A stretch of DNA of 64,000 nucleotides from Escherichia coli (GTDB lineage Bacteria > Pseudomonadota > Gammaproteobacteria > Enterobacterales > Enterobacteriaceae): the NCBI RefSeq assembly GCF_030013205.1, contig NZ_CP122648.1. One strand, written 5' to 3'. A program made the position numbers and the translations under genes. Of the stretch, positions 4,165 through 60,857 are shown in pieces. The notes under the pieces were generated by a model that saw only the letters and a program-made list of their open reading frames with translations, ran no database searches and was not told the DNA's origin. Numbering within the stretch: position 1 is the stretch's first letter; the number at the start of each line of letters is the position of its first letter.

Positions 4165-5067
4165 ATGTCACAGGTTACTGAAAATAAAGTGATTAGCGCA
4201 CCGGTGCCGATGACCCCGTTACAGGAGTTCTGGCACTATTTTAAACGCAACAAAGGCGCGGTCGTCGGGCTGGTTTACGTCGTCATCGTGCTGTTTATCG
4301 CGATCTTTGCCAACTGGATTGCACCCTATAACCCGGCGGAACAGTTCCGCGATGCACTGCTCGCCCCGCCAGCCTGGCAGGAAGGCGGCAGCATGGCGCA
4401 CTTGCTGGGCACCGATGACGTAGGCCGTGATGTGCTGTCGCGTCTGATGTACGGTGCGCGATTGTCACTGCTGGTTGGCTGTCTGGTAGTTGTGTTATCG
4501 CTGATTATGGGCGTTATTCTCGGCCTGATCGCCGGTTACTTCGGCGGCCTGGTCGATAACATCATCATGCGCGTGGTCGATATCATGCTGGCGCTACCAA
4601 GTCTGCTGTTGGCACTGGTGCTGGTGGCGATTTTCGGCCCGTCGATTGGTAACGCCGCGCTGGCGCTGACCTTCGTTGCCTTGCCGCACTATGTGCGCTT
4701 AACACGCGCCGCCGTGCTGGTGGAGGTGAATCGCGATTACGTTACCGCGTCTCGCGTGGCAGGTGCCGGGGCGATGCGTCAGATGTTTATTAACATCTTC
4801 CCGAACTGCCTTGCGCCTCTGATTGTTCAGGCGTCGCTCGGTTTCTCTAACGCCATTCTCGATATGGCTGCTCTTGGTTTCCTCGGCATGGGGGCGCAGC
4901 CGCCAACGCCGGAGTGGGGCACCATGCTCTCCGACGTGTTGCAGTTCGCGCAAAGCGCCTGGTGGGTCGTGACCTTCCCGGGTCTGGCGATCCTGCTGAC
5001 GGTGCTGGCATTTAACCTGATGGGTGACGGTCTGCGTGACGCGCTCGATCCCAAACTGAAGCAGTAA
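4165..5067 (+). CDS. dppC: Dipeptide ABC transporter permease DppC
   Basis: The 300-aa ORF is recognised as the E. coli DppC sequence. Confidence 0.97.
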
Positions 5068-5077
5068 GAGGTTCGAG

Positions 5078-6057
<980 letters not shown>

Positions 6058-7091: not shown

Positions 7092-8363
7092 TTACTCAAT
7101 CAGCTTCAACAGTGGCGACAAGCATAGCAAAATGCCGTAAAGCAGAATCAGCCAGGCTTTAAATCCGCGAAGTTTTTCCAGTTGTGCGACTTTATAGATC
7201 AGGAAAAACGGAATGAGGCACGACACAATGCCATATAACGGGCTTCCCAACTGAAAGAACACCAGCACCGATACACGAAACGAAACCCAAATCGTCAACG
7301 TAATGACGATAAAAGCGCAGATCGCCAGAGTCAGCACGCGTGAATTAATTTTCTTGGTATCAATAATTCGGCTTAACAGATTGAGAATAATGCCTTTAAT
7401 GGCCTCGTGGAAACCGAGATAAATGCCAAAGAATGCGGTCAGTACGGCAAAGATATTCAGCACCGTAGAGGTGATATGAATGATATGCCCAGGGATCACC
7501 TGCGCGGCCAGTGCCAGTGCCGAGATATTTTGTTCAAAGGCAGAAACGGCTTCTTCGTGGCTAATTGAGAAGGTAAACGAAAAGGCAAAAAACAGGATCA
7601 CCGCAATGAGCGTGATATAACTAATTCGGTGGGTACGCAGCGCGAGCCGGGTTGCCAGTACTTTATCTGCTTCCCGTTTACGATAGGCAATATTCATTGG
7701 GTTAAGTACCTGAATAAATACTGCAGAAAAGAAGCAAAATGGAATGGTAAGCAGGACATCGCGGAAAAAGACGGAGGCTTGCGGGAAGGCGGTTATATTG
7801 GCGAAATTCCAGTGCGGGATCATCGCAAAACCGAACACGACAATAATCCCTACTTTGACCACCACCATTGGCCCGGAAATCTTAAACAGTAATCGTTCAC
7901 CACCAGACGCAATTGCCACCAGTACGGCGAAAATGGCGACTTTATAAAGTAGAGATTGTGAAAGATCGGCATCGGTTAAACCGAAGGTTTTCAGGTACGA
8001 GGCGCTGTCGAAAACCACGGAGAGAGAGTAGATAAAAATCCCGTGGATAATCATCAAAAAGTAGATAACCCCGAGGAAAATTCCCCAGTTCTTCCCCAGG
8101 TAATGACTGATAATATCGGTGTAGTCATTACAGGAATCGCTTTCAGAAAGGGTTTTTAAATAAATGTCCTGCACTACCCAGGTGGCAGGATAAGCAATGA
8201 TCGCTGCGGTAATAAATACCCAAATTCCCTTCAAGCCAATTTGTACTGGCATCAGCACGGTTCCGGCACCAATCGCCATGCCTATGCATAATAAAACCCA
8301 GCCGAAGTCGTAGCGTGTAAACGGCAATTTCTGATTGTGTTTCGGTAGTGTGTTGTGCTGCAT
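7092..8363 (-). CDS. yhjV: Putative amino-acid (serine/threonine-type, HAAAP family) transporter YhjV
   Basis: The 423-aa protein starts at the internal Met ([12 protein letters not shown]..) of the 444-aa ORF. It is a polytopic membrane protein in the K-12 synteny position. Confidence 0.9.
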
Positions 8364-8720
8364 AAAGTCCTGTCCAGAAAGAAGTCGGCCTCGCAAAAAT
8401 GAATAAACCCAGTTTCTCTTGCGCAACAGGTGGAGAAGTCGAATACGCAGTATGTAAAAAATGAGGCAACAGATTCACTGGGGAGGTCGCGAGGAGGCGC
8501 AATTCTACAAAATTGCGCATTTCACTACCAGTCTGGAGTCAGCTCGGATATGAACTGCAACTATTGCAAATAAAGAAATTAAGCTGGAAGGCATCGCGCA
8601 ATGAGGAAGATTGCCGGGTGCTGACGGTAAAAAGCAATCGTAAAATCAGCGGCAAGCCGGAAAGGTTCCGGTGAGGCGCAATGTTGCGGGGGCTTAATCC
8701 CTGGTGGCATTGGTTGCTGG

Positions 8721-8790
8721 AGAGAGAAAACCCCCGCACGTTGCAGGTATGCACCTGACAACATCACGGGGGCTAATCTTGAACCTAGAC
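8721..8790 (-). ncRNA. rdlD: Rdl antisense RNA, copy 1 (ends approximate)
   Basis: The reverse complement reads GTCTAGG..AGATTAGCCCCCGTGATGTTGTCAGGTGCATACCTGCAACGTGCGGGGGTTTTCTCTCT. This matches the remembered RdlD sequence and carries a terminator-like GGGGG hairpin and U-tract. Confidence 0.7.
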
Positions 8791-8838
8791 CACTCAAGAA
8801 TAGCCGCGAAACGTTGTCATTACAACACAGGCGGCTAT

Positions 8839-8946
8839 ATGACGCTCGCAGAACTGGGCATGGCCTTCTGGCATGATTTAGCGGCTCCGGTCATTGCTGG
8901 CATTCTTGCCAGCATGATCGTGAACTGGCTGAATAAGCGGAAGTAA
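8839..8946 (+). CDS. ldrD: Type I toxin Ldr (LdrD-type 35-aa peptide), copy 1
   Basis: It encodes MTLAELGMAFWHDLAAPVIAGILASMIVNWLNKRK, which closely resembles the K-12 LdrD peptide. Confidence 0.9.
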   Translation: MTLAELGMAFWHDLAAPVIAGILASMIVNWLNKRK

Positions 8947-9203
8947 CGTGTCAGACGGGCGTCAGGCTGCCGTAATGGCAAGTTGCGTCCGGATCAGGCC
9001 GCAGGGATAAAACTCTGCGGCCTTTTTCGTAAGAAAAATGCAACGGTTGCAAGCGGATAATATTCTGCGGAATGCGCAGCACAGAGTGAAGACGTGACGG
9101 ATTCCGGAACAGAAAAACAGTCGTAGAATCAGCGGCAAGCCGGAAAGGTTCCGGTGAGGCGCAATGTTGCGGGGGCTTTATCCCTGGTGGCATTGGTTGC
9201 TGG

Positions 9204-54858: not shown

Positions 54859-56082
54859 TTATGGGATTATATTCTGGTAATGATTTGATAAGCGAATTCT
54901 TTTGCCAGATGGTGTTTCTATTTCCACCCCATAATTTATAGTTTTTTCATCAGGTAGCGATCTCTTTAAATAAGGTGCGTATGACATTTTTTTTGGGTTA
55001 AGCGTCTCGTATTGAAATACTTCGAATTGATATTCAGACATTTCTGCCCATGTTTGAATTTTATTGTATCGGGGTAGTGTCGTAAAGGCTTTAACTTGCT
55101 TATAACATTGTTTTTTGAATTCTTGCTGATATTTTAATATGTCATTGTATGAAATATTGGTTATCCTGGCCTCTAAGAATTTAATTATTGTCGAAGCAAT
55201 TTCCGCTTTTGCTCGTAAAAAGTTGTCATTAATGGTTAATAATGTTGAAAATAAACCTTCGATTTGTTTGTCAAGATATTGTTCGTCTTTATATAATTTT
55301 GGGGTAGGGTGTTCTTTATGTGAAAAAATAGTGTCACCTAAATTTGCGTCAGTGAAATTTATATTAAGTAGATCTTCGAAATAAAACCTTGACAAGGTTA
55401 GAACGAACCCGGACAGGTTCTGTCCTGTCATATTGAAATCAATAAAGTTGGTTCCGGCAAAGACTTTCATCCTGTTTTTATTTTCACTGTGTTCAATATA
55501 TAACTTCGTCATTTTTTGATACAGGCTTTGAATATCTTTTATATTAGTCGGTAAGTCAGCTCGTTGTTCAGCAATAAAATTAGTATCTGAAAATATGGTT
55601 TGGACACTGAATGTTATGGGTATTCCCTCTTCTACGCTAATTTTAGTTATGATTGCCTTGTCGGGTTTAGGATTAGCGACAACAATGATTCGACATTCAG
55701 CACTTTTGTTCTTTTCGTATCTAATGTTATTAATTTGATTAAGTAGTCCCTGTGCCTGCCGCGTAAGTGGTGTCGAACTTATCGATTCAATGTTAGTAAT
55801 AAGACTTACAAGTTGAGCCACAACTTTTGAGTAGTCTGCATTTGTATATGTGGTGTTCGTGTGGCACGCATTAATTTGTTGGAGTTGTTGTTGCGCTAAA
55901 TCAAATTGTTCAGCGTTATATCCTTCTTCAGACAATGAAAAATTAATGGGTTGCTGTTCTTCCTGATTATCACAAGGCCACATCGGTGTGTCTGGTGTTT
56001 TAACATTGTCGGTATCTGTTGTGCGGTTATAAATATCGCCGTGATATGTATTTATCATACCTGGGGTAAAGTCAATTGACAT
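54859..56082 (-). CDS. yhiS: Uncharacterised AT-rich protein YhiS, intact here, with a pentapeptide-repeat-like central segment
   Basis: The 407-aa ORF occupies the position of K-12 yhiS, which is IS5-disrupted there. The segment [43 protein letters not shown] shows a 5-residue periodicity. Confidence 0.75.
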
Positions 56083-56662
56083 AACATTCCTTATTGTTCA
56101 TCTATTTCGCTAAATTTTTGTAAATCGGAGAATTAGAGCAGGAATGGATTTTCTTCTACGCGGAAATAAACACAATGCGTCATATCTTCCTGATATAATT
56201 ATCTTTAACTTCCCTTTCATTTCCACCCGGTAATATTTGTGTATAAAAAAAGGGCAGTGATAGTATCGTAAAGGAAAACGTTAACAACTATCAAAAAGCG
56301 CTCATTTTAAAAAGTTATGATGTTCACCGATAGTGTGTGAAGTGATATTTTTGTGATGTTTTAGATGTGTAATAATGAACCAGGTTAAAGTGTATTTAAA
56401 AATGTGTTGTATTGGCGACTGAAATCTGCCCTTTAAAAGGGGGGATAGCACTGAAACAAAGAGACATTGCTTCTCCGATAAAATGTCAGAGAAGCATGAT
56501 TGCGTGGTGATTGTCGATTGATGACTTACTGACGGATCCGTCATCATTCTCAAAGCATTAGTTAAGTTATTTGTGATTTTTAAGGATTATCCTATCTATG
56601 ATTTTCTACTCAGAAGGATAAGGCACTCACAATGCTCCTTATAGTTTACTGCTGGCATCTAT

Positions 56663-57676
56663 TTAAAATAGCATTTGAGTCAAATAGCCCATCAAGATAG
56701 CCATACCTAATATAACCGTCAGGAATGCAACTATCATCGGTATTCTGAACATTGATTTAAGTAATATCACTTCCGTCAGACTTGCGCCGGCACTGCCGAT
56801 GATTAATGCCATTAATGCCCCCAGACCCATGCCTTTCGTCATCAGAACTGATGCCAGAGGGATAACCGCCTCTGCCCGGATATATAGCGGAATACCGACA
56901 ACGGCGCTCAATGGGATGGCGAAGGGATTATCTGCCCCTGCATGAGCGGCAATCCACTCTGAGGGAATAAAGCCATAAATAAAAGAGCCTATTAATACCC
57001 CTAACAAAAGATATGGCAGTACATCTTTAAACTGTTGCAACGCATCTTTGGTGGCTAGTTTTATGGGATTAATACTTACCACAGCTTTGGTACTGCAACA
57101 GTTTACTACAGGTTTCTCAATGGCTTTAGCCGCTGGACTACAGCAACTCACTTTTATTGGCGTATATGTCGTCCCCGGCGAAGTTTTGGCTGGAGCACAA
57201 CAATTTGCTGATGAGCTTTTACTGGCAATGATATGACGTTCAAATCCCAGGGAATCCAGGATAATACTGGCAAGTACGGAGACGCCGGCGGCGATAATCG
57301 CGTACAACAAGGTAACTTTCCAGCCAAAGGTCACCCACATTAACCCGACGATAATGGGATTAAGTAATGGGGAAACAAATAAAAAAGTGAGGGTCGGACC
57401 GAACCCGGCTTTCGCTGACAACAATCCACGTAACATTGGGATTGTCGAGCAACTACAGAACGGGGTAACGGCTCCCAACAGAGCCGCCAGGAGATAGCCT
57501 CTCCCTTTTCTGGCCCCCATCATCTGCCGGATTTTATGGTCTGGCACCTTTTGTCTTATCAGGCTCACACCGGCACTAATCACTATAAACAGCAAAGAAA
57601 GCTCAACGGCGAGAAACACAAACATCTCTGCGGCATCTTGCAGCATCGCAAGCCAACTACTCATACGTAACCTCAT
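56663..57676 (-). CDS. DUF318/ArsP-like permease with a Cys-rich cytoplasmic loop. An alternative start at 57664 has a better SD.
   Basis: The 337-aa ORF has about 8 TM segments and a TPFCSCS motif in an early TM. A central loop carries three CC pairs. It is divergent from an ArsR-family gene. Confidence 0.8.
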   Translation of the reverse strand: MRLRMSSWLAMLQDAAEMFVFLAVELSLLFIVISAGVSLIRQKVPDHKIRQMMGARKGRGYLLAALLGAVTPFCSCSTIPMLRGLLSAKAGFGPTLTFLFVSPLLNPIIVGLMWVTFGWKVTLLYAIIAAGVSVLASIILDSLGFERHIIASKSSSANCCAPAKTSPGTTYTPIKVSCCSPAAKAIEKPVVNCCSTKAVVSINPIKLATKDALQQFKDVLPYLLLGVLIGSFIYGFIPSEWIAAHAGADNPFAIPLSAVVGIPLYIRAEAVIPLASVLMTKGMGLGALMALIIGSAGASLTEVILLKSMFRIPMIVAFLTVILGMAILMGYLTQMLF

Positions 57677-57689
57677 TGAATAAATCTAT

Positions 57690-57709
57690 ATTTCCAGAAT
57701 AATCGAAAT
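57690..57709. promoter_or_regulatory. Candidate operator 1 (ATTTC-N10-GAAAT palindrome) in the divergent promoter region
   Basis: The sequence is ATTTCCAGAATAATCGAAAT. Confidence 0.45.
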
Positions 57710-57726
57710 GAAATTCAGATCAAGAT

Positions 57727-57746
57727 ATTTCTGGTATTATCGAAAT
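57727..57746. promoter_or_regulatory. Candidate operator 2 (ATTTC-N10-GAAAT palindrome)
   Basis: ATTTCTGGTATTATCGAAAT lies 37 bp from operator 1, and the two sites are about 80% identical. Confidence 0.45.
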
Positions 57747-57771
57747 ATCAACCAGACAAAGGGGGTGTCAT

Positions 57772-58068
57772 ATGCAGTTGGAAGAAGTTGCTAAAGCGCT
57801 GAAAGAGCTAGGTCACCCGAGCCGTTTGTTCATATTCAAACACCTGGTCAAAGCGGGGGAACAAGGTTTGCCCGTCGGTGAGTTGCAAAAGCAGCTTGGG
57901 ATACCCGGCTCTACACTCAGTCACCATATTTCAGCACTGGTATCGGTAGGGCTGGTCAAACAAAACCGTGAGAGTCGAACGCTGATGTGTGTTTCGCAAT
58001 ACGCAATGCTGGAAGCGATAATTGAATTCTTACGCGAGGAGTGCTGCGTAAATAGCAAAATTGCCTGA
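57772..58068 (+). CDS. ArsR/SmtB-family transcriptional regulator, atypical (C-terminal vicinal Cys pair, no ELCVCDL site)
   Basis: The 98-aa ORF has a winged HTH (LPVGELQKQLGIPGSTLSHHISALVSVGLV). Its cysteines are at positions 73, 91 and 92. Confidence 0.85.
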   Translation: MQLEEVAKALKELGHPSRLFIFKHLVKAGEQGLPVGELQKQLGIPGSTLSHHISALVSVGLVKQNRESRTLMCVSQYAMLEAIIEFLREECCVNSKIA

Positions 58069-58144
58069 TGCGCTACGCGCTACAGATTTCATGCCATGCA
58101 CGGTTTTGTAGGTCGGATAAGACGCGTTAGCGTCGCATCCGACA
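58062..58144. repeat. REP/BIME-type extragenic palindromic element
   Basis: It contains GCCTGATGCGCTACGCGC and GTAGGTCGGATAAGACGCGTTAGCGTCGCATCCGACA. Confidence 0.8.
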
Positions 58145-58190
58145 TAAACAAAGCGCACTTTACCAACTATGGGCAGTGGATATCGCCGCT

Positions 58191-58616
58191 TTATTTCAAG
58201 CGTTTACCCGCTTCATCAACCACTTTCTCGCCATCTTCCTTGGTGAACGCGCCTTGTTGCGCATCTGGCAGAATTTCCAGCACGACTTCTGAAGGGCGGC
58301 ACAGGCGAGTTCCCAACGGCGTCACCACAATCGGGCGATTAATCAGAATCGGGTGCTGAAGCATAAAGTCGATTAACCGATCGTCAGTAAATTTATCTTC
58401 TGCAAGGCCCAGTTCCTCATACGGCTCGACGTTTTTACGCAGCAGCGCGCGTACGGAAATCCCCATATCGGCAATGAGTTTGACCAGTTCATCACGCGTC
58501 GGTGGGGTTTCCAGATAATAGACGATGGTCGGTTCTGTACCGCTGTTGCGGATCATCTCCAGCGTATTACGCGACGTACCGCAGGCCGGGTTGTGATAAA
58601 TGGTAATGTTGCTCAT
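58191..58616 (-). CDS. arsC: Arsenate reductase ArsC (glutaredoxin-coupled)
   Basis: The 141-aa ORF (MSNITIYHNPACGTSRNTLEMIR..) is recognised as ArsC. Confidence 0.97.
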   Translation of the reverse strand: MSNITIYHNPACGTSRNTLEMIRNSGTEPTIVYYLETPPTRDELVKLIADMGISVRALLRKNVEPYEELGLAEDKFTDDRLIDFMLQHPILINRPIVVTPLGTRLCRPSEVVLEILPDAQQGAFTKEDGEKVVDEAGKRLK

Positions 58617-58628
58617 ATCAATATCTCA

Positions 58629-59918
58629 TTACAAAGTGAAAGAGAGACGTAGCGCCAGCGCAGCCAGCGTCACAAACAGCACCGGCAGGGTCATGATAAT
58701 CCCTGTACGGAAGTAATATCCCCAGCTGATAGTTATATTCTTCTGCGAAAGTACGTGCAGCCATAGTAGCGTTGCCAGGCTACCAATCGGGGTAATTTTC
58801 GGCCCCAAATCGCAGCCAATTACGTTGGCATAAACCATCGCTTCTTTGATAACGCCAGATGCCGTGCTGCCATCAATGGACAACGCGCCAACCAGTACCG
58901 TCGGCATATTGTTCATAATAGAAGAGAGGAAGGCGGTGAGGAATCCGGTGCCGAGCGTCGCGGCCCACAGGCCATTATCCGCCAGCACGTTGAGTACGCC
59001 AGAAAGATATTCCGTTAGTCCGGCATTGCGCAGGCCATAAACCACCAGATACATGCCGAGCGAGAAGATGACAATCTGCCAGGGCGCACCGCGCAGGACT
59101 TTACCCGTATTAATTGCATGACCGCGTTTAGCGACGGCAAATAATATCAGCGCGCCCACTGCCGCAATGGCGCTGACCGGAATGCCGAGCGGTTCCAGGA
59201 CGAAAAATCCCACCAGCAGAAACAGTAAAACAACCCAGCCAGTTTTGAAGGTGGCAGGATCTTTAATCGCTTCTGCGGGAGATTTCAGCAGCGCCATATC
59301 GTAGTTCTGCGGAATATCTTTGCGGAAATAGAGATGCAACATCACCAGCGTGGCAACAATCGCGGCGATATCCACCGGCACCATCACCGAGGCATATTCG
59401 CGAAAGCCGAGGCCAAAGAAATCTGCGGAAACGATATTCACCAGGTTGGAGACAATAAGCGGCAGGCTGGCGGTATCGGCAATGAACCCGGCCGCCATCA
59501 CGAACGCAAGCGTCGTGCCTTTACTGAACCCTAAAGCCAGCAGCATGGCGATGACAATCGGTGTCAAAATAAGCGCCGCGCCATCATTGGCAAACAGAGC
59601 TGCAACGGCAGCACCGAGCAGGACAATCCAGGTAAACAGCAAGCGACCGCGTCCATTGCCCCAGCGTGAGACGTGCAGCGCCGCCCATTCAAAAAAGCCG
59701 GACTCATCCAGCAGCAGGCTGATGATAATGACGGCAATAAACGCCGCCGTCGCGTTCCAGACGATATTCCACACCACCGGAATATCACCCGGATGTACCA
59801 CGCCCGTAACTAACGCCAGTACTGCGCCAAGCGTTGCACTCCAGCCGATGCCTAAACCTTTCGGCTGCCAGATAACCAATACGATGGTCAGGACAAAGAT
59901 AGCGCCTGCCAGTAACAT
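58629..59918 (-). CDS. arsB: Arsenite/antimonite efflux pump ArsB
   Basis: The 429-aa protein starts at [21 protein letters not shown].. The 436-aa ORF is an upstream extension. Confidence 0.96.
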
Positions 59919-59972
59919 AATGCCTCCCGGAAAAAACACATGTGAAAATCCATATGTGTTTAGATAAATTTT

Positions 59973-60326
59973 TTAACTACAAGTGTTCTTACAGTCTACG
60001 GAACAATTTTGTCTGGCCAGGTTGCGGACAATCACCTGAACCTTTTCCTGTTCGCATCGCCAGGCCTGCTCAATAATTTTCGCGGCCCATGATGGAATAT
60101 GCGGTGATAAGCGGTAATGAACCCACTTACCCTGCTTGCGATCCAGCAACAAACCGCTTTCACGAAGAAGCGCCAGATGGCGGGAGATCTTGGGCTGCGA
60201 CTGGTCGAGAGCAGTGCAGAGATCACAGACGCATAACTCTCCCAGCTCGCTGAGCAGTAAAACGATGCCCAGACGGGTTTCATCAGCAAGAATTTTGAAC
60301 AGTTGGATGGGTAACAGAAATGACAT
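59973..60326 (-). CDS. arsR: Arsenic-responsive repressor ArsR (canonical)
   Basis: The 117-aa ORF has the canonical As(III) site ELCVCDLC. Confidence 0.97.
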   Translation of the reverse strand: MSFLLPIQLFKILADETRLGIVLLLSELGELCVCDLCTALDQSQPKISRHLALLRESGLLLDRKQGKWVHYRLSPHIPSWAAKIIEQAWRCEQEKVQVIVRNLARQNCSVDCKNTCS

Positions 60327-60477
60327 ATTGCGCTCCTGATTGTTGCAGGTAGTGTCTCTCTTCGAAGCGGATAAGTCAAAAACATATATGGTTTAACGAA
60401 TGTGTATGTGCAGAGGAAGGTAATAGGTGTGAATTTTGAGTTGGCTATTTATTTGAAAGGAGGTCTGAATCAGGACG

Positions 60478-60565
60478 TAAAAAAACCGACTTTGCGTCGG
60501 TTTTTTACTTTCCAGCCCTGAGTTGGTGGCTCTGGCCGGAGTGAGAATGCCCACATCTAACGGTT
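60478..60565 (-). ncRNA. agrB: AgrB antisense-type sRNA, the antitoxin of dinQ (ends approximate)
   Basis: The minus strand carries the terminator AACCGACGCAAAGTCGGTT plus a U-run. The 32-nt block at 60529-60560 is identical to 60963-60994 in the dinQ leader, so the minus-strand transcript is perfectly complementary to it. Confidence 0.7.
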
Positions 60566-60635
60566 CAATACTATTAGCCAGTGGCTAACATTGCAAGCGT
60601 TAGCGATTTCTTCAGCTGGCGAAGGGACAGTTTGC

Positions 60636-60688: not shown

Positions 60689-60711
60689 CAGGCCTTGTCC
60701 GAATCCGGACG

Positions 60712-60800
60712 TAAAAAAACCGACTTCGCGTCGGTTTTTTACTTTGCAGCCCAGAGTTGGTGGCTCTGGCTGGAGTGAGAATGCCATCATCTAACGCATC
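60712..60800 (-). ncRNA. agrA: AgrA sRNA, the diverged paralogue of AgrB (ends approximate)
   Basis: This is a second copy of the repeat with its own terminator. It has 3 mismatches in the 32-nt block (60764-60795). Confidence 0.65.
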
Positions 60801-60857
60801 AATGCTAATACCATACTGAAACTATTGCAAGGACATGCTGGTTTTATAACCTGTATG

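What the first reader, a model, noticed from the sequence alone, without database searches (positions are those of the whole stretch)
56663..58068. Extra divergent ArsR-family regulator and DUF318/ArsP-like permease module adjoining arsRBC: candidate organoarsenical or soft-metal efflux unit
**Location.** Between yhiS and arsC lies a divergent gene pair that, as far as I recall, is not present in K-12.

**The permease.** It is 337 aa with about 8 TM segments. It carries the T-P-F-C-S-C-S motif in an early TM, which is characteristic of the DUF318 family. That family includes ArsP, the methylarsenite and roxarsone efflux permease described in Campylobacter.

**The regulator.** The 98-aa ArsR/SmtB protein lacks the canonical alpha-3 ELCVCDL As(III) site found in the neighbouring ArsR at 59973-60326. 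Instead it has a vicinal Cys91-Cys92 pair at the extreme C-terminus, plus Cys73. This is reminiscent of the alternative C-terminal sensor sites in Acidithiobacillus AfArsR and of the two-cysteine, MAs(III)-selective Shewanella ArsR.

**Inference.** The locus would then hold two sensor/exporter circuits side by side: inorganic As(III)/Sb(III) via ArsR-ArsB-ArsC, and trivalent organoarsenicals or another thiophilic species via the second pair. The substrate assignment is inference only.
Basis: partly seen in the sequence, partly recalled or inferred. Interest (0 to 1): 0.55.

Follow-up and report, generated by a model that had tools for sequence, protein, structure and literature searches.

The report
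ArsR-type repressor with ArsP-like efflux permease
Next to the classical arsenic-resistance genes arsRBC, this E. coli strain carries an uncharacterised, self-regulated pump gene pair that most likely exports a trivalent, probably organic, arsenic compound; K-12 lost the pair by deletion, but about 41% of E. coli genomes, hundreds of resistance plasmids and at least one phage carry it.

Summary
**Observation:** confirmed. A PF03773 (ArsP_1) permease gene lies at 56663-57664(-), 333 aa from the likely true start. It is divergent from a 98-aa ArsR/SmtB regulator gene at 57772-58068(+).

**Permease:** 37% identical over its full length to Campylobacter ArsP, the characterised methylarsenite exporter. 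It is only remotely related to the Cu/Zn exporter SO_0444. It shares the TPFCSCST motif and has three Cys-Cys pairs in its central loop.

**Regulator:** its best solved relative is Acidithiobacillus AfArsR, and Cys91-Cys92 align with AfArsR Cys95-Cys96. Cys73, Cys91 and Cys92 are invariant in 55 of 55 orthologues.

**Control region:** the intergenic region holds two copies of an ATATTTC-N10-GAAATAT palindrome over overlapping divergent promoters. The motif is conserved across phyla.

**Arsenic linkage:** in 24 of 79 species the permease sits beside ars genes, in at least five different arrangements.

**Distribution:** the pair is complete in 2224 of 5426 complete E. coli genomes. K-12 keeps a decayed 3' stub of the regulator, so the pair is ancestral at this locus rather than extra. 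Related copies ride on 647 plasmids and on a Citrobacter phage.

**Verdict:** a new member of the ArsR-ArsP kind. The substrate is inferred, not shown.

The parts
56663..57664 (-). Permease gene of the ArsP clade of PF03773, 333 aa from the likely true start (the longest ORF runs to 57676, 337 aa). It has 4+4 hydrophobic segments, TPFCSCST in the second segment, and a central loop with three Cys-Cys pairs.
57772..58068 (+). ArsR/SmtB-family winged-helix repressor gene, 98 aa. Cys73 lies in strand beta-2. Cys91-Cys92 follow directly after helix alpha-5. All three are invariant in orthologues.
57724..57749 (.). Operator A, nearest the regulator gene: a perfect 8-10-8 palindrome, GATATTTC-N10-GAAATATC. 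It abuts the -35 of the permease promoter and lies in the regulator's 5' leader.
57688..57709 (.). Operator B, nearest the permease gene: ATATTTC-N10-GAAAT. Its spacer contains the -10 hexamers of both divergent promoters. With operator A it forms the 37-nt tandem duplication 57688-57724 / 57725-57761.
57696..57723 (-). Predicted permease promoter: -35 TTGATC (57723-57718), 16-nt spacer, -10 TATTCT (57701-57696). TTGAC and TATACT-like elements sit at the same places in orthologous intergenic regions.
   Evidence: consensus reading; no transcript data
57676..57703 (+). Predicted regulator promoter: -35 TTGAAT (57676-57681), 16-nt spacer, -10 AATAAT (57698-57703). It overlaps the permease -10 on the other strand.
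58191..60326 (-). Context, not part of the module: the canonical arsR (59973-60326), arsB (58629-59918) and arsC (58191-58616) operon. It is convergent with the regulator gene.

Best explanation
The pair is a self-contained, inducible efflux unit of the ArsR-ArsP kind.

**Repression (inferred from anatomy).** The 98-aa ArsR/SmtB dimer binds two ATATTTC-N10-GAAATAT operators. These cover the overlapping, divergent promoters of its own gene and of the permease gene, and keep both off.

**Induction (inferred).** A thiophilic trivalent arsenical binds the cysteine thiolates at the C-terminal end of helix alpha-5, Cys91-Cys92. Invariant Cys73 possibly contributes from the partner subunit. Binding releases the repressor.

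**Export (inferred).** The 8-TM permease then exports the compound. The intramembrane C-S-C pair of TM2 is the same pair that sits in the characterised CjArsP. The Cys-Cys-rich central loop is a likely capture or hand-over site.

**Substrate.** The most likely substrates are methylarsenite and aromatic trivalent arsenicals, complementing ArsB, which handles inorganic As(III)/Sb(III). Inorganic As(III)/Sb(III) as inducer or substrate is not excluded.

**Shown here:** family membership, Cys conservation, operator conservation, linkage to ars genes, and distribution.

**Inferred:** ligand, substrate and direction of transport.

**How sure I am of each step.** The stated confidence of 0.55 is for the whole statement. 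Taken separately: about 0.85 that this is a repressor-operator-permease unit, about 0.6 that the ligand is an arsenical, and about 0.4 that it is specifically an organoarsenical.
For: **Permease**
- PF03773, E 2.4e-52.
- 37% identity over the full length to CjArsP, 210 bits. Against SO_0444 only 51-bit fragments.
- A neighbour-joining tree puts its clade next to TCDB (Transporter Classification Database) members 2.A.119.1.4/1.5 and CjArsP, with SO_0444 as a distant outgroup.
- NCBIfam scores are 108 against a 300-bit cut-off for SO_0444 and 84 against 325 for SaoE.
- The TPFCSCST motif is identical in CjArsP.

**Regulator**
- Best PDB sequence hit is AfArsR (6J05), E 1e-9, with Cys91-92 aligned to AfArsR Cys95-96.
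- The AlphaFold2 model has pLDDT 93.9. Its best Foldseek match is 6J05, TM-score 0.87.
- Cys73, Cys91 and Cys92 are invariant in 55 of 55 neighbour regulators, and in a second set of 40 homologues.

**Coupling of the two genes**
- 54 of 79 species-level loci keep a regulator with at least 50% identity within 600 bp of the permease.
- The 7-10-7 palindrome occurs twice in nearly all of the divergent intergenic regions read, from Enterobacterales to Desulfovibrionaceae, Deferribacteraceae and Coraliomargarita.

**Arsenic linkage**
- 24 of 79 loci have arsA, arsB, arsC, arsD or acr3 within 8 kb, in at least five architectures.
- In some the permease is embedded inside the operon, as arsR-arsD-arsA-perm-acr3 or arsR-arsD-perm-arsA-acr3.
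- No other functional gene class recurs across taxa.
- The theme recurs on a Staphylococcus epidermidis plasmid and in Citrobacter phage Chris1.
- These operons already carry Acr3 or ArsB, which argues for a non-redundant substrate.
Against: - 55 of 79 loci, and the IncF and IncHI2 plasmid copies, have no ars gene nearby.
- 37% identity does not fix a transporter's substrate.
- Cys-Cys-rich loops also occur in the Cu/Zn exporter SO_0444.
- Three invariant cysteines fit a three-coordinate As(III)/Sb(III) or soft-metal site at least as well as a two-coordinate MAs(III) site.
- The permease structure model was unusable, pLDDT 44.
- No expression or phenotype data were found.
Confidence: 0.55

Rival explanations
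1. The architecture is the same, but the physiological ligand and substrate are inorganic As(III)/Sb(III). In this reading Cys73' from the partner subunit plus Cys91/Cys92 form a three-thiolate site. The permease is an alternative arsenite carrier, in some taxa a membrane partner of ArsA.
For: - Cys73 is as invariant as Cys91/92.
- The model puts Cys73 in beta-2, just before alpha-5, and the Cys-Cys pair just after alpha-5. In the antiparallel alpha-5/alpha-5' dimer interface of this fold these positions can face each other (established knowledge of SmtB/CzrA alpha-5 sites; inference here).
- In Chromobacteriales and Endozoicomonas the permease sits directly beside arsD-arsA.
- A review notes a published proposal that ArsP couples with ArsA (PMC6205960).
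Against: - Those same operons also carry acr3, and the E. coli locus carries arsB. An arsenite carrier would therefore be redundant.
- CjArsP, the nearest characterised relative, does not transport As(III) (PMC6205960).
- The dimer geometry was not modelled.
Confidence: 0.2
2. It is a soft-metal (Zn, Cu, Cd, Hg, Pb) sensor and exporter, like the SO_0444 branch of PF03773, and its neighbourhood to ars genes is incidental.
For: - The same Pfam family contains genetically supported Cu/Zn efflux proteins, SO_0444 and Shew_3410.
- Cys-Cys-rich loops are shared with SO_0444.
- The C-S-C motif is superfamily-wide.
- Most loci are stand-alone.
- Cys3 ArsR/SmtB sensors for Cd/Pb exist, for example CmtR and CadC (general knowledge).
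Against: - Only remote similarity to SO_0444: 51-bit fragments, and 108 against a 300-bit NCBIfam cut-off.
- The SO_0444 branch is paired with ZntR/MerR-type regulators, not ArsR.
- The only recurrent neighbours are ars genes, in 24 of 79 loci across about six lineages. No czc, cad, mer or cop genes recur.
- The CmtR NCBIfam score is 17 against a 150-bit cut-off.
Confidence: 0.13
3. It is a thiol-redox, persulfide or electrophile sensor of the BigR/SqrR/YgaV type, controlling export of a sulfur or organic compound.
For: - YgaV and BigR are the second and third best PDB sequence hits.
- Three conserved cysteines could form a disulfide or polysulfide switch.
- An AhpC/redoxin gene lies next to the Shewanella copy.
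Against: - The BigR NCBIfam score is 38 against a 155-bit cut-off.
- The regulator has no Cys in alpha-2, where BigR and SqrR have their first sensing Cys.
- No rhodanese, sulfide:quinone oxidoreductase, persulfide dioxygenase or TauE neighbours recur.
- Vicinal Cys-Cys pairs are poor disulfide formers and classic arsenical ligands (general chemistry).
Confidence: 0.07

Closest known systems
Campylobacter jejuni ArsP (TCDB 2.A.119.1.1, UniProt B5LWZ8), the methylarsenite and trivalent roxarsone efflux permease
   Same: - Same Pfam family and 4+4 TM layout.
- 37% identity over the full length.
- Identical TPFCSCST motif in the second hydrophobic segment.
- A Cys-Cys pair in the central loop.
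- Found beside arsR, arsC and acr3-type genes.
   Different: - The window protein has three loop Cys-Cys pairs (relatives have 0-9) against one in CjArsP.
- It has its own dedicated divergent regulator instead of sitting inside the ars operon.
- Its substrate is untested.
Shewanella putrefaciens SpArsR, the MAs(III)-selective ArsR with a two-Cys site (Cys101-Cys102); from my own recollection of Chen et al. 2017, a paper I could not open, it controls arsP and arsH
   Same: - A vicinal Cys-Cys pair at the position of AfArsR Cys95-96.
- No third Cys downstream of the pair (46 of 55 orthologues, window included).
- SpArsR's properties are taken from PMC11868830 and PMC13236881.
   Different: - An additional invariant Cys73 in strand beta-2.
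- No S. putrefaciens protein appeared among the 120 best relatives of a Shewanella member of this family.
Acidithiobacillus ferrooxidans AfArsR (PDB 6J05), with the type-2 C-terminal As(III) site Cys95-Cys96-Cys102
   Same: - Best sequence and fold match: E 1e-9, TM-score 0.87, 30% identity.
- The Cys-Cys pairs align.
   Different: - The window protein has no Cys102 equivalent. It ends CCVNSKIA.
- AfArsR has no Cys at the Cys73 position (alignment).
Shewanella oneidensis SO_0444, and Shew_3410: Cu/Zn efflux proteins of PF03773
   Same: - Same superfamily.
- A C-S-C motif.
- A Cys-Cys-rich central loop.
   Different: - Only 22-27% identity, in fragments.
- Score below the family cut-off.
- The motif context differs: LPLCSCG.
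- SO_0444 has extra TM segments and is 491 aa long.
- It is paired with a ZntR/MerR regulator.
E. coli chromosomal and R773 ArsR-ArsB (the neighbouring circuit at 58629-60326)
   Same: An ArsR/SmtB repressor controlling a metalloid exporter.
   Different: - Its sensing site is the type-1 ELCVCDLC site in alpha-3.
- Its exporter is ArsB (PF02040), an unrelated fold.
- It is co-directional in an operon rather than a divergent pair.

Membership tests
ArsP organoarsenical exporter family (TCDB 2.A.119 / Pfam PF03773, CjArsP branch) | PF03773 domain over the whole protein with a 4+4 TM layout | tested here: met
   E 2.4e-52 over residues 13-334. Eight hydrophobic segments, four on each side of the central loop.
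ArsP organoarsenical exporter family (TCDB 2.A.119 / Pfam PF03773, CjArsP branch) | The conserved cysteine pair of TM2 (CjArsP Cys65 and Cys67 in TPFCSCS). That mutation of the two conserved cysteines abolishes transport is my recollection of the abstract of Chen et al. 2015; the paper was not readable here. | tested here: met
   The window has VTPFCSCSTIPMLRGLL and CjArsP has LTPFCSCSTIPLLRAFL. The pair is invariant in 11 of 11 and 79 of 79 relatives. The motif is superfamily-wide, so it is necessary but not sufficient.
ArsP organoarsenical exporter family (TCDB 2.A.119 / Pfam PF03773, CjArsP branch) | Closer to CjArsP than to members of PF03773 with a different known function | tested here: met
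   210 bits and 37% identity over the full length to CjArsP, against 51 bits to SO_0444. The tree agrees.
ArsP organoarsenical exporter family (TCDB 2.A.119 / Pfam PF03773, CjArsP branch) | Genomic association with arsenic-resistance genes | tested here: met
   24 of 79 species-level loci, in at least five architectures. The association also holds in the window itself, in phage Chris1 and on a S. epidermidis plasmid.
ArsP organoarsenical exporter family (TCDB 2.A.119 / Pfam PF03773, CjArsP branch) | Transports MAs(III) and Rox(III) but not As(III) or pentavalent species | not testable with these tools
   This needs MIC, accumulation and everted-vesicle assays.
SO_0444 family Cu/Zn efflux transporter (NCBIfam NF033936) | Score at or above the curated equivalog cut-off | tested here: not met
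   107.7 bits against a cut-off of 300.
SO_0444 family Cu/Zn efflux transporter (NCBIfam NF033936) | Paired with a ZntR/MerR-type regulator | tested here: not met
   The partner is ArsR/SmtB-type in 54 of 79 loci. The ZntR pairing of SO_0444 and Shew_3410 comes.
ArsR/SmtB metalloregulators (NCBIfam NF033788 subfamily) | Winged-helix alpha1-alpha2-alpha3-alpha4-beta1-beta2-alpha5 fold, and a score above the cut-off | tested here: met
   59.8 bits against 55. The model (pLDDT 93.9) has exactly this order of elements. Foldseek's top hits are all ArsR/SmtB proteins.
Type-1 As(III) site (R773 / E. coli ArsR, ELCVCDLC in alpha-3) | [quoted passage not shown] | tested here: not met
   There is no Cys before residue 73.
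Type-2 As(III) site (AfArsR Cys95-Cys96-Cys102) | A vicinal Cys-Cys pair at the C-terminal end of alpha-5 | tested here: met
   Cys91-92 align with AfArsR Cys95-96 and lie directly after alpha-5, residues 77-90.
Type-2 As(III) site (AfArsR Cys95-Cys96-Cys102) | A third Cys a few residues downstream (Cys102) | tested here: not met
   The window protein ends CCVNSKIA. 46 of 55 orthologues have no Cys within 12 residues after the Cys-Cys pair.
SpArsR-type MAs(III)-selective repressor | Only the two vicinal cysteines conserved, and selective response to MAs(III) | tested here: inconclusive
   The Cys-Cys pair without a downstream Cys fits. A third invariant Cys, Cys73, is present.
BigR/SqrR persulfide sensors (NCBIfam NF040642) | Score above the cut-off, and a sensing Cys in alpha-2 paired with one in alpha-5 | tested here: not met
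   38.4 bits against 155. There is no Cys in alpha-2, residues 16-31.

The most novel reading that the evidence does not exclude
The regulator may define an unrecognised sensing-site class within ArsR/SmtB. In this class an inter-subunit three-thiolate site is built from a beta-2 cysteine (Cys73') and the vicinal pair at the end of alpha-5 (Cys91-Cys92). It would be read out through a phylum-spanning ATATTTC-N10-GAAATAT operator and coupled to an ArsP-clade exporter with a loop holding several Cys-Cys pairs. The unit rides on conjugative IncF and IncHI2 resistance plasmids and on a temperate phage. It could therefore be a hidden co-selection determinant, for example under organoarsenical feed additives, or it could sense a thiophilic toxicant other than those known for ArsR proteins.
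Probability: 0.3. Interest if true: 0.65.

Novelty: new member of a known kind. Interest (0 to 1): 0.45.

Why it matters
**Why it was overlooked.** E. coli is the reference organism for arsenic resistance, yet its laboratory strain K-12 has deleted this unit. The unit is therefore annotated only as 'permease' and 'ArsR/SmtB family transcription factor'.

**How widespread it is.**
- It is complete in about 41% of complete E. coli genomes.
- Related copies sit on 647 plasmids in the PLSDB collection, mostly conjugative, in Escherichia, Salmonella and Klebsiella.
- One copy sits in a Citrobacter phage alongside arsRDABC.

**If it exports methylarsenite or aromatic arsenicals.**
- It would extend enterobacterial arsenic resistance to the most toxic arsenic species.
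- It would give a concrete candidate for co-selection of resistance plasmids by organoarsenicals.
- It would provide a compact sensor and operator pair for biosensors.

**Structural question.** The invariant Cys73 raises a testable question about how ArsR sensors build their sites.

Tried and rejected
**Led nowhere**
- The AlphaFold2 model of the permease, from an 11-sequence alignment, had pLDDT 44 and pTM 0.37. It was too poor for topology or cavity analysis, and no fold search was run on it.
- The PDB sequence search for the permease gave no hit at E up to 1.
- The primary papers on ArsP (Chen 2015) and SpArsR (Chen 2017) are not held, by DOI or by PMC id.
- I tried to find SpArsR by searching with a Shewanella member of the regulator family. 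No S. putrefaciens protein appeared among the best 120 hits.
- The supplement of PMC13236881 holds no sequences.
- Full-text searches for the RefSeq accessions of the pair found nothing. 'CjArsP' and 'vicinal cysteine' found nothing relevant.
- The sidedness of the central loop is unresolved. Both loop 1 (7 K/R) and the central loop (10 K/R) are positively charged, which a simple 4-TM first half cannot satisfy.

**Considered and rejected**
- Type-1 ArsR site: no cysteines in alpha-3.
- BigR-type sensor: the score and the Cys positions do not fit.
- Recent insertion into the ars locus: K-12 carries a deletion remnant.
- Pseudogene or decaying remnant: the ORFs are intact and strongly conserved in 2224 genomes.

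**Left as anecdote**
- Poultry sources are frequent among the plasmid hosts. I did not test enrichment, so this remains an anecdote.
Full report
**1. What is in the sequence**

Between the yhiS-like ORF (54859-56082) and arsC (58191-58616) lie two divergent ORFs.

*The permease, on the minus strand.*
- It matches Pfam PF03773 (ArsP_1) with E 2.4e-52 over residues 13-334.
- It has 4+4 hydrophobic segments.
- It has exactly eight cysteines: C74-S-C76 inside VTPFCSCST, plus three Cys-Cys pairs (159/160, 178/179, 193/194) in a lysine-rich central loop.
The real start is almost certainly the ATG at 57664, giving 333 aa.
  - A GAGG sits 7 nt upstream of it, and the ATG at 57676 overlaps that Shine-Dalgarno sequence.
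  - NCBI's PGAP annotation and all homologues begin at this Met.

*The regulator, on the plus strand (57772-58068).*
- It is a 98-aa ArsR/SmtB protein: HTH_20 E 1e-13, and NCBIfam metalloregulator subfamily 59.8 against a 55-bit cut-off.
- It has no cysteine before residue 73. It has Cys73, Cys91 and Cys92.
- The neighbouring ArsR (59973-60326) carries the classical ELCVCDLC site.

**2. The control region**

The 107-bp intergenic region contains a 37-nt tandem duplication, 57688-57724 and 57725-57761. Each copy holds an ATATTTC-N10-GAAAT(AT) palindrome.
- The copy next to the regulator gene (57724-57749) is a perfect 8-10-8 inverted repeat.
- I extracted the intergenic regions of the loci where the regulator and permease genes are divergent. 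The same motif, consensus ATATTTCGATAATACYAGAAATAT, appears twice in nearly every one. The taxa include Enterobacterales, Aeromonas, Oceanospirillales, Desulfovibrionaceae, Deferribacteraceae and Coraliomargarita.
- A TTGAC-like -35 directly follows the first copy. A TATACT/TATTCT-like -10 lies inside the spacer of the second copy.
- In the window the permease promoter reads -35 TTGATC (57723-57718) and -10 TATTCT (57701-57696).
- The regulator promoter reads -35 TTGAAT (57676-57681) and -10 AATAAT (57698-57703).
- The two -10 elements therefore overlap inside operator B.

This is the anatomy of an autoregulated repressor that also shuts off the divergent transporter gene. The promoter assignments are consensus readings, not transcript data.

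**3. The permease is on the ArsP side of its superfamily**

PF03773 holds proteins of different function.
- C. jejuni ArsP exports MAs(III) and Rox(III) but not As(III) (PMC6205960).
- SO_0444 and Shew_3410 protect Shewanella from Cu and Zn and are paired with ZntR.
- The C-S-C tripeptide is conserved across all of them.

I recovered the TCDB (Transporter Classification Database) reference sequences from the supplement of PMC7176098 and compared them with the window permease.

| Reference | Result |
|---|---|
| CjArsP | 37% identity over the full length, 210 bits, E 8e-70 |
| TCDB 2.A.119.1.4 and 1.5 | 40% identity |
| SO_0444 | 22-27% identity in fragments, 51 bits |

- NCBIfam gives 108 against a 300-bit cut-off for SO_0444 and 84 against 325 for SaoE.
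- A neighbour-joining tree of 37 relatives plus the TCDB set puts the window clade next to 1.4/1.5 and CjArsP, with SO_0444 as a distant outgroup.
- A Cys-rich central loop is a clade feature. 58 of 77 relatives have two or more Cys-Cys pairs, and the rest have 4-8 single cysteines. The loop is hypervariable in length and sequence.

**4. The regulator**

- Its best solved relative by sequence is AfArsR (6J05, E 1e-9). Query EFLREECCVNS aligns to AYLTENCCHGT, so Cys91-92 correspond to the As(III) ligands Cys95-96.
- An AlphaFold2 model from 40 homologues is confident (pLDDT 93.9). Its elements are alpha-1 3-13, alpha-2 16-31, alpha-3 35-42, alpha-4 46-58, beta-1 62-67, beta-2 70-75 and alpha-5 77-90.
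- Foldseek again ranks 6J05 first, TM-score 0.87.
- Cys73 therefore lies in beta-2, and the Cys-Cys pair lies immediately after alpha-5.
- The protein lacks AfArsR's third ligand, Cys102. In that respect it resembles SpArsR, whose two-Cys site makes it MAs(III)-selective (PMC11868830 and PMC13236881).
- However, in 55 of 55 regulators encoded next to the permease, and in a second set of 40 database homologues, Cys73 is as invariant as Cys91 and Cys92. AfArsR has no Cys at that position.
- In this fold the alpha-5 helices pack antiparallel in the dimer. A residue just before alpha-5' can therefore approach the end of alpha-5, as in the SmtB/CzrA alpha-5 metal sites.
- A Cys73'-Cys91-Cys92 three-thiolate site is thus plausible. 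It is inference, because I could not model the dimer.
- I could not obtain the SpArsR sequence, so orthology is untested.

**5. Genomic context elsewhere**

A scan of one genome per species found 79 loci with a permease at least 45% identical. They span Gammaproteobacteria, Desulfovibrionaceae, Deferribacteraceae, Alistipes, Fusobacterium, Thermoguttaceae and a methanogen.
- 54 loci keep the Cys-bearing regulator within 600 bp.
- Clustering all neighbour ORFs shows that the only gene classes recurring across taxa are ArsR-family, Acr3 (SBF, PF01758), ArsA, ArsD, ArsC and ArsB.
- 24 of 79 loci have at least one of these ars genes within 8 kb.
- ars-linked and solitary members are interspersed in the tree, so the linkage arose repeatedly.
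- From general knowledge, an ars locus covers about 0.1% of a genome. The chance expectation is therefore well under 1%. This figure is an estimate, not a computed control.
- The ars-linked operons already carry Acr3 or ArsB, which argues that the permease adds a different specificity.
- More distantly, a S. epidermidis plasmid has an arsR-permease operon (36% identity) divergent from arsDA-arsRBC.
- Against the arsenic reading, 55 of 79 loci are solitary, as are the plasmid copies.

The ars-linked loci fall into these architectures:

| Architecture | Taxa |
|---|---|
| arsRBC beside the pair | Escherichia, Shigella, Buttiauxella |
| Permease divergent from regulator-arsR2-arsD-arsA-acr3-arsC | four Aeromonas species |
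| arsR-arsD-arsA-perm-acr3, or arsR-arsD-perm-arsA-acr3 | Crenobacter, Craterilacuibacter, Deefgea |
| acr3-arsD-arsA-perm | Endozoicomonas |
| arsA-arsB-perm | a Pseudomonas metagenome-assembled genome |

**6. Distribution in E. coli and on mobile elements**

- The whole 1.8-kb region is present in 2224 of 5426 complete E. coli genomes.
- MG1655 lacks window 56392-57998. It still has, next to the REP element and arsC, an 88%-identical remnant of the last 63 bp of the regulator gene, with the Cys-Cys pair decayed to Tyr-Cys. K-12 therefore lost the pair by deletion, and the pair is not an insertion in this strain.
- A copy about 84% identical at the DNA level sits alone on IncF-type plasmids, between repA and a ProQ/FinO-like gene.
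- 647 plasmids in the PLSDB collection carry it, 457 of them conjugative: 400 Escherichia, 186 Salmonella and 32 Klebsiella.
- IncHI2 plasmids carry a second paralogous pair (48% identity) whose regulator again has the beta-2 Cys and EECC.
- Citrobacter phage Chris1, and matching prophages, carry arsRDABC plus the pair as cargo between the replication genes and dinI/rusA.

**7. Verdict**

Its interpretation is supported as far as computation can go.
- The unit is best filed as a new, uncharacterised member of the ArsR-ArsP kind.
- Two features deserve an experiment: the invariant third cysteine in the sensor, and the loop with several Cys-Cys pairs in the exporter.
- The repressor-operator-permease logic is well supported. 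That the ligand is an arsenical is likely. That it is specifically an organoarsenical is the leading but unproven reading.
- Names in public databases are generic, and I found no paper on this pair. The search library is limited, so prior work cannot be excluded.

Noticed in passing
window 58096-58145 (core 58107-58144): A REP-like palindromic element lies between the regulator's stop codon and arsC. Its 38-nt core matches many unrelated places in E. coli chromosomes (rows H19-H25). It is retained in K-12 next to the regulator remnant.
   Followed up: partly
L093 (K-12 MG1655) 4664-5291 of the locus; corresponds to window 57999-58068: K-12 keeps an unannotated, decayed 3' stub of the regulator gene, translating as MLDAIIGISRREYCVNSKIA*. 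It may also keep a 17-nt trace of the permease gene (16 of 17 matched, E 0.015). These are scars of a 1.6-kb deletion.
   Followed up: yes
window 54859-56082 (-): The yhiS-like ORF is intact here (407 aa, no Pfam or NCBIfam hit). It is split by IS5 in K-12. Its counterpart is annotated as frameshifted in ETEC1748, the strain whose pair region (56400-58200) is 100% identical to the window.
   Followed up: no
L094/L095 (Citrobacter phage Chris1, ON041214.1); L004-L006: A sequenced temperate phage and matching Citrobacter prophages carry a complete arsR-arsD-arsA-arsB-arsC operon plus the regulator and permease pair. The seven genes sit as cargo between replication gene P and dinI/rusA.
   Followed up: partly
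L096 (Salmonella Agona IncHI2A plasmid CP119482.1) 5566-7026: A second, paralogous divergent pair: the permease is 48.7% identical, and the regulator has the same beta-2 Cys and EECC. It is flanked by IS elements and lies near repHI2. Its regulator is closest to those of the halophiles Nitrincola and Salinicola (L087, L091).
   Followed up: partly
L013 (Shigella flexneri CP182556.1) 7132-8972: The permease match starts only at residue 15, and no regulator ORF was detected in the 878 bp between arsC and the permease. The pair may be decaying in this Shigella genome.
   Followed up: no
window 60463-60576 and 60697-60810: Two 114-nt repeats upstream of arsR match the K-12 small RNA genes agrA and agrB (the dinQ antitoxin RNAs) at 86-89% identity.
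   Followed up: no
L016, L020, L022, L030 (Aeromonas spp.): In these species the Cys-bearing regulator lies directly upstream of, and co-directional with, a second ArsR-family gene followed by arsD-arsA-acr3-arsC. One intergenic region may therefore control both the permease and a full ars operon.
   Followed up: no
PLSDB hits: Many plasmid carriers come from chicken, turkey, duck or pig sources. This would be interesting given the use of roxarsone and nitarsone, but no background-corrected enrichment test was done.
   Followed up: no
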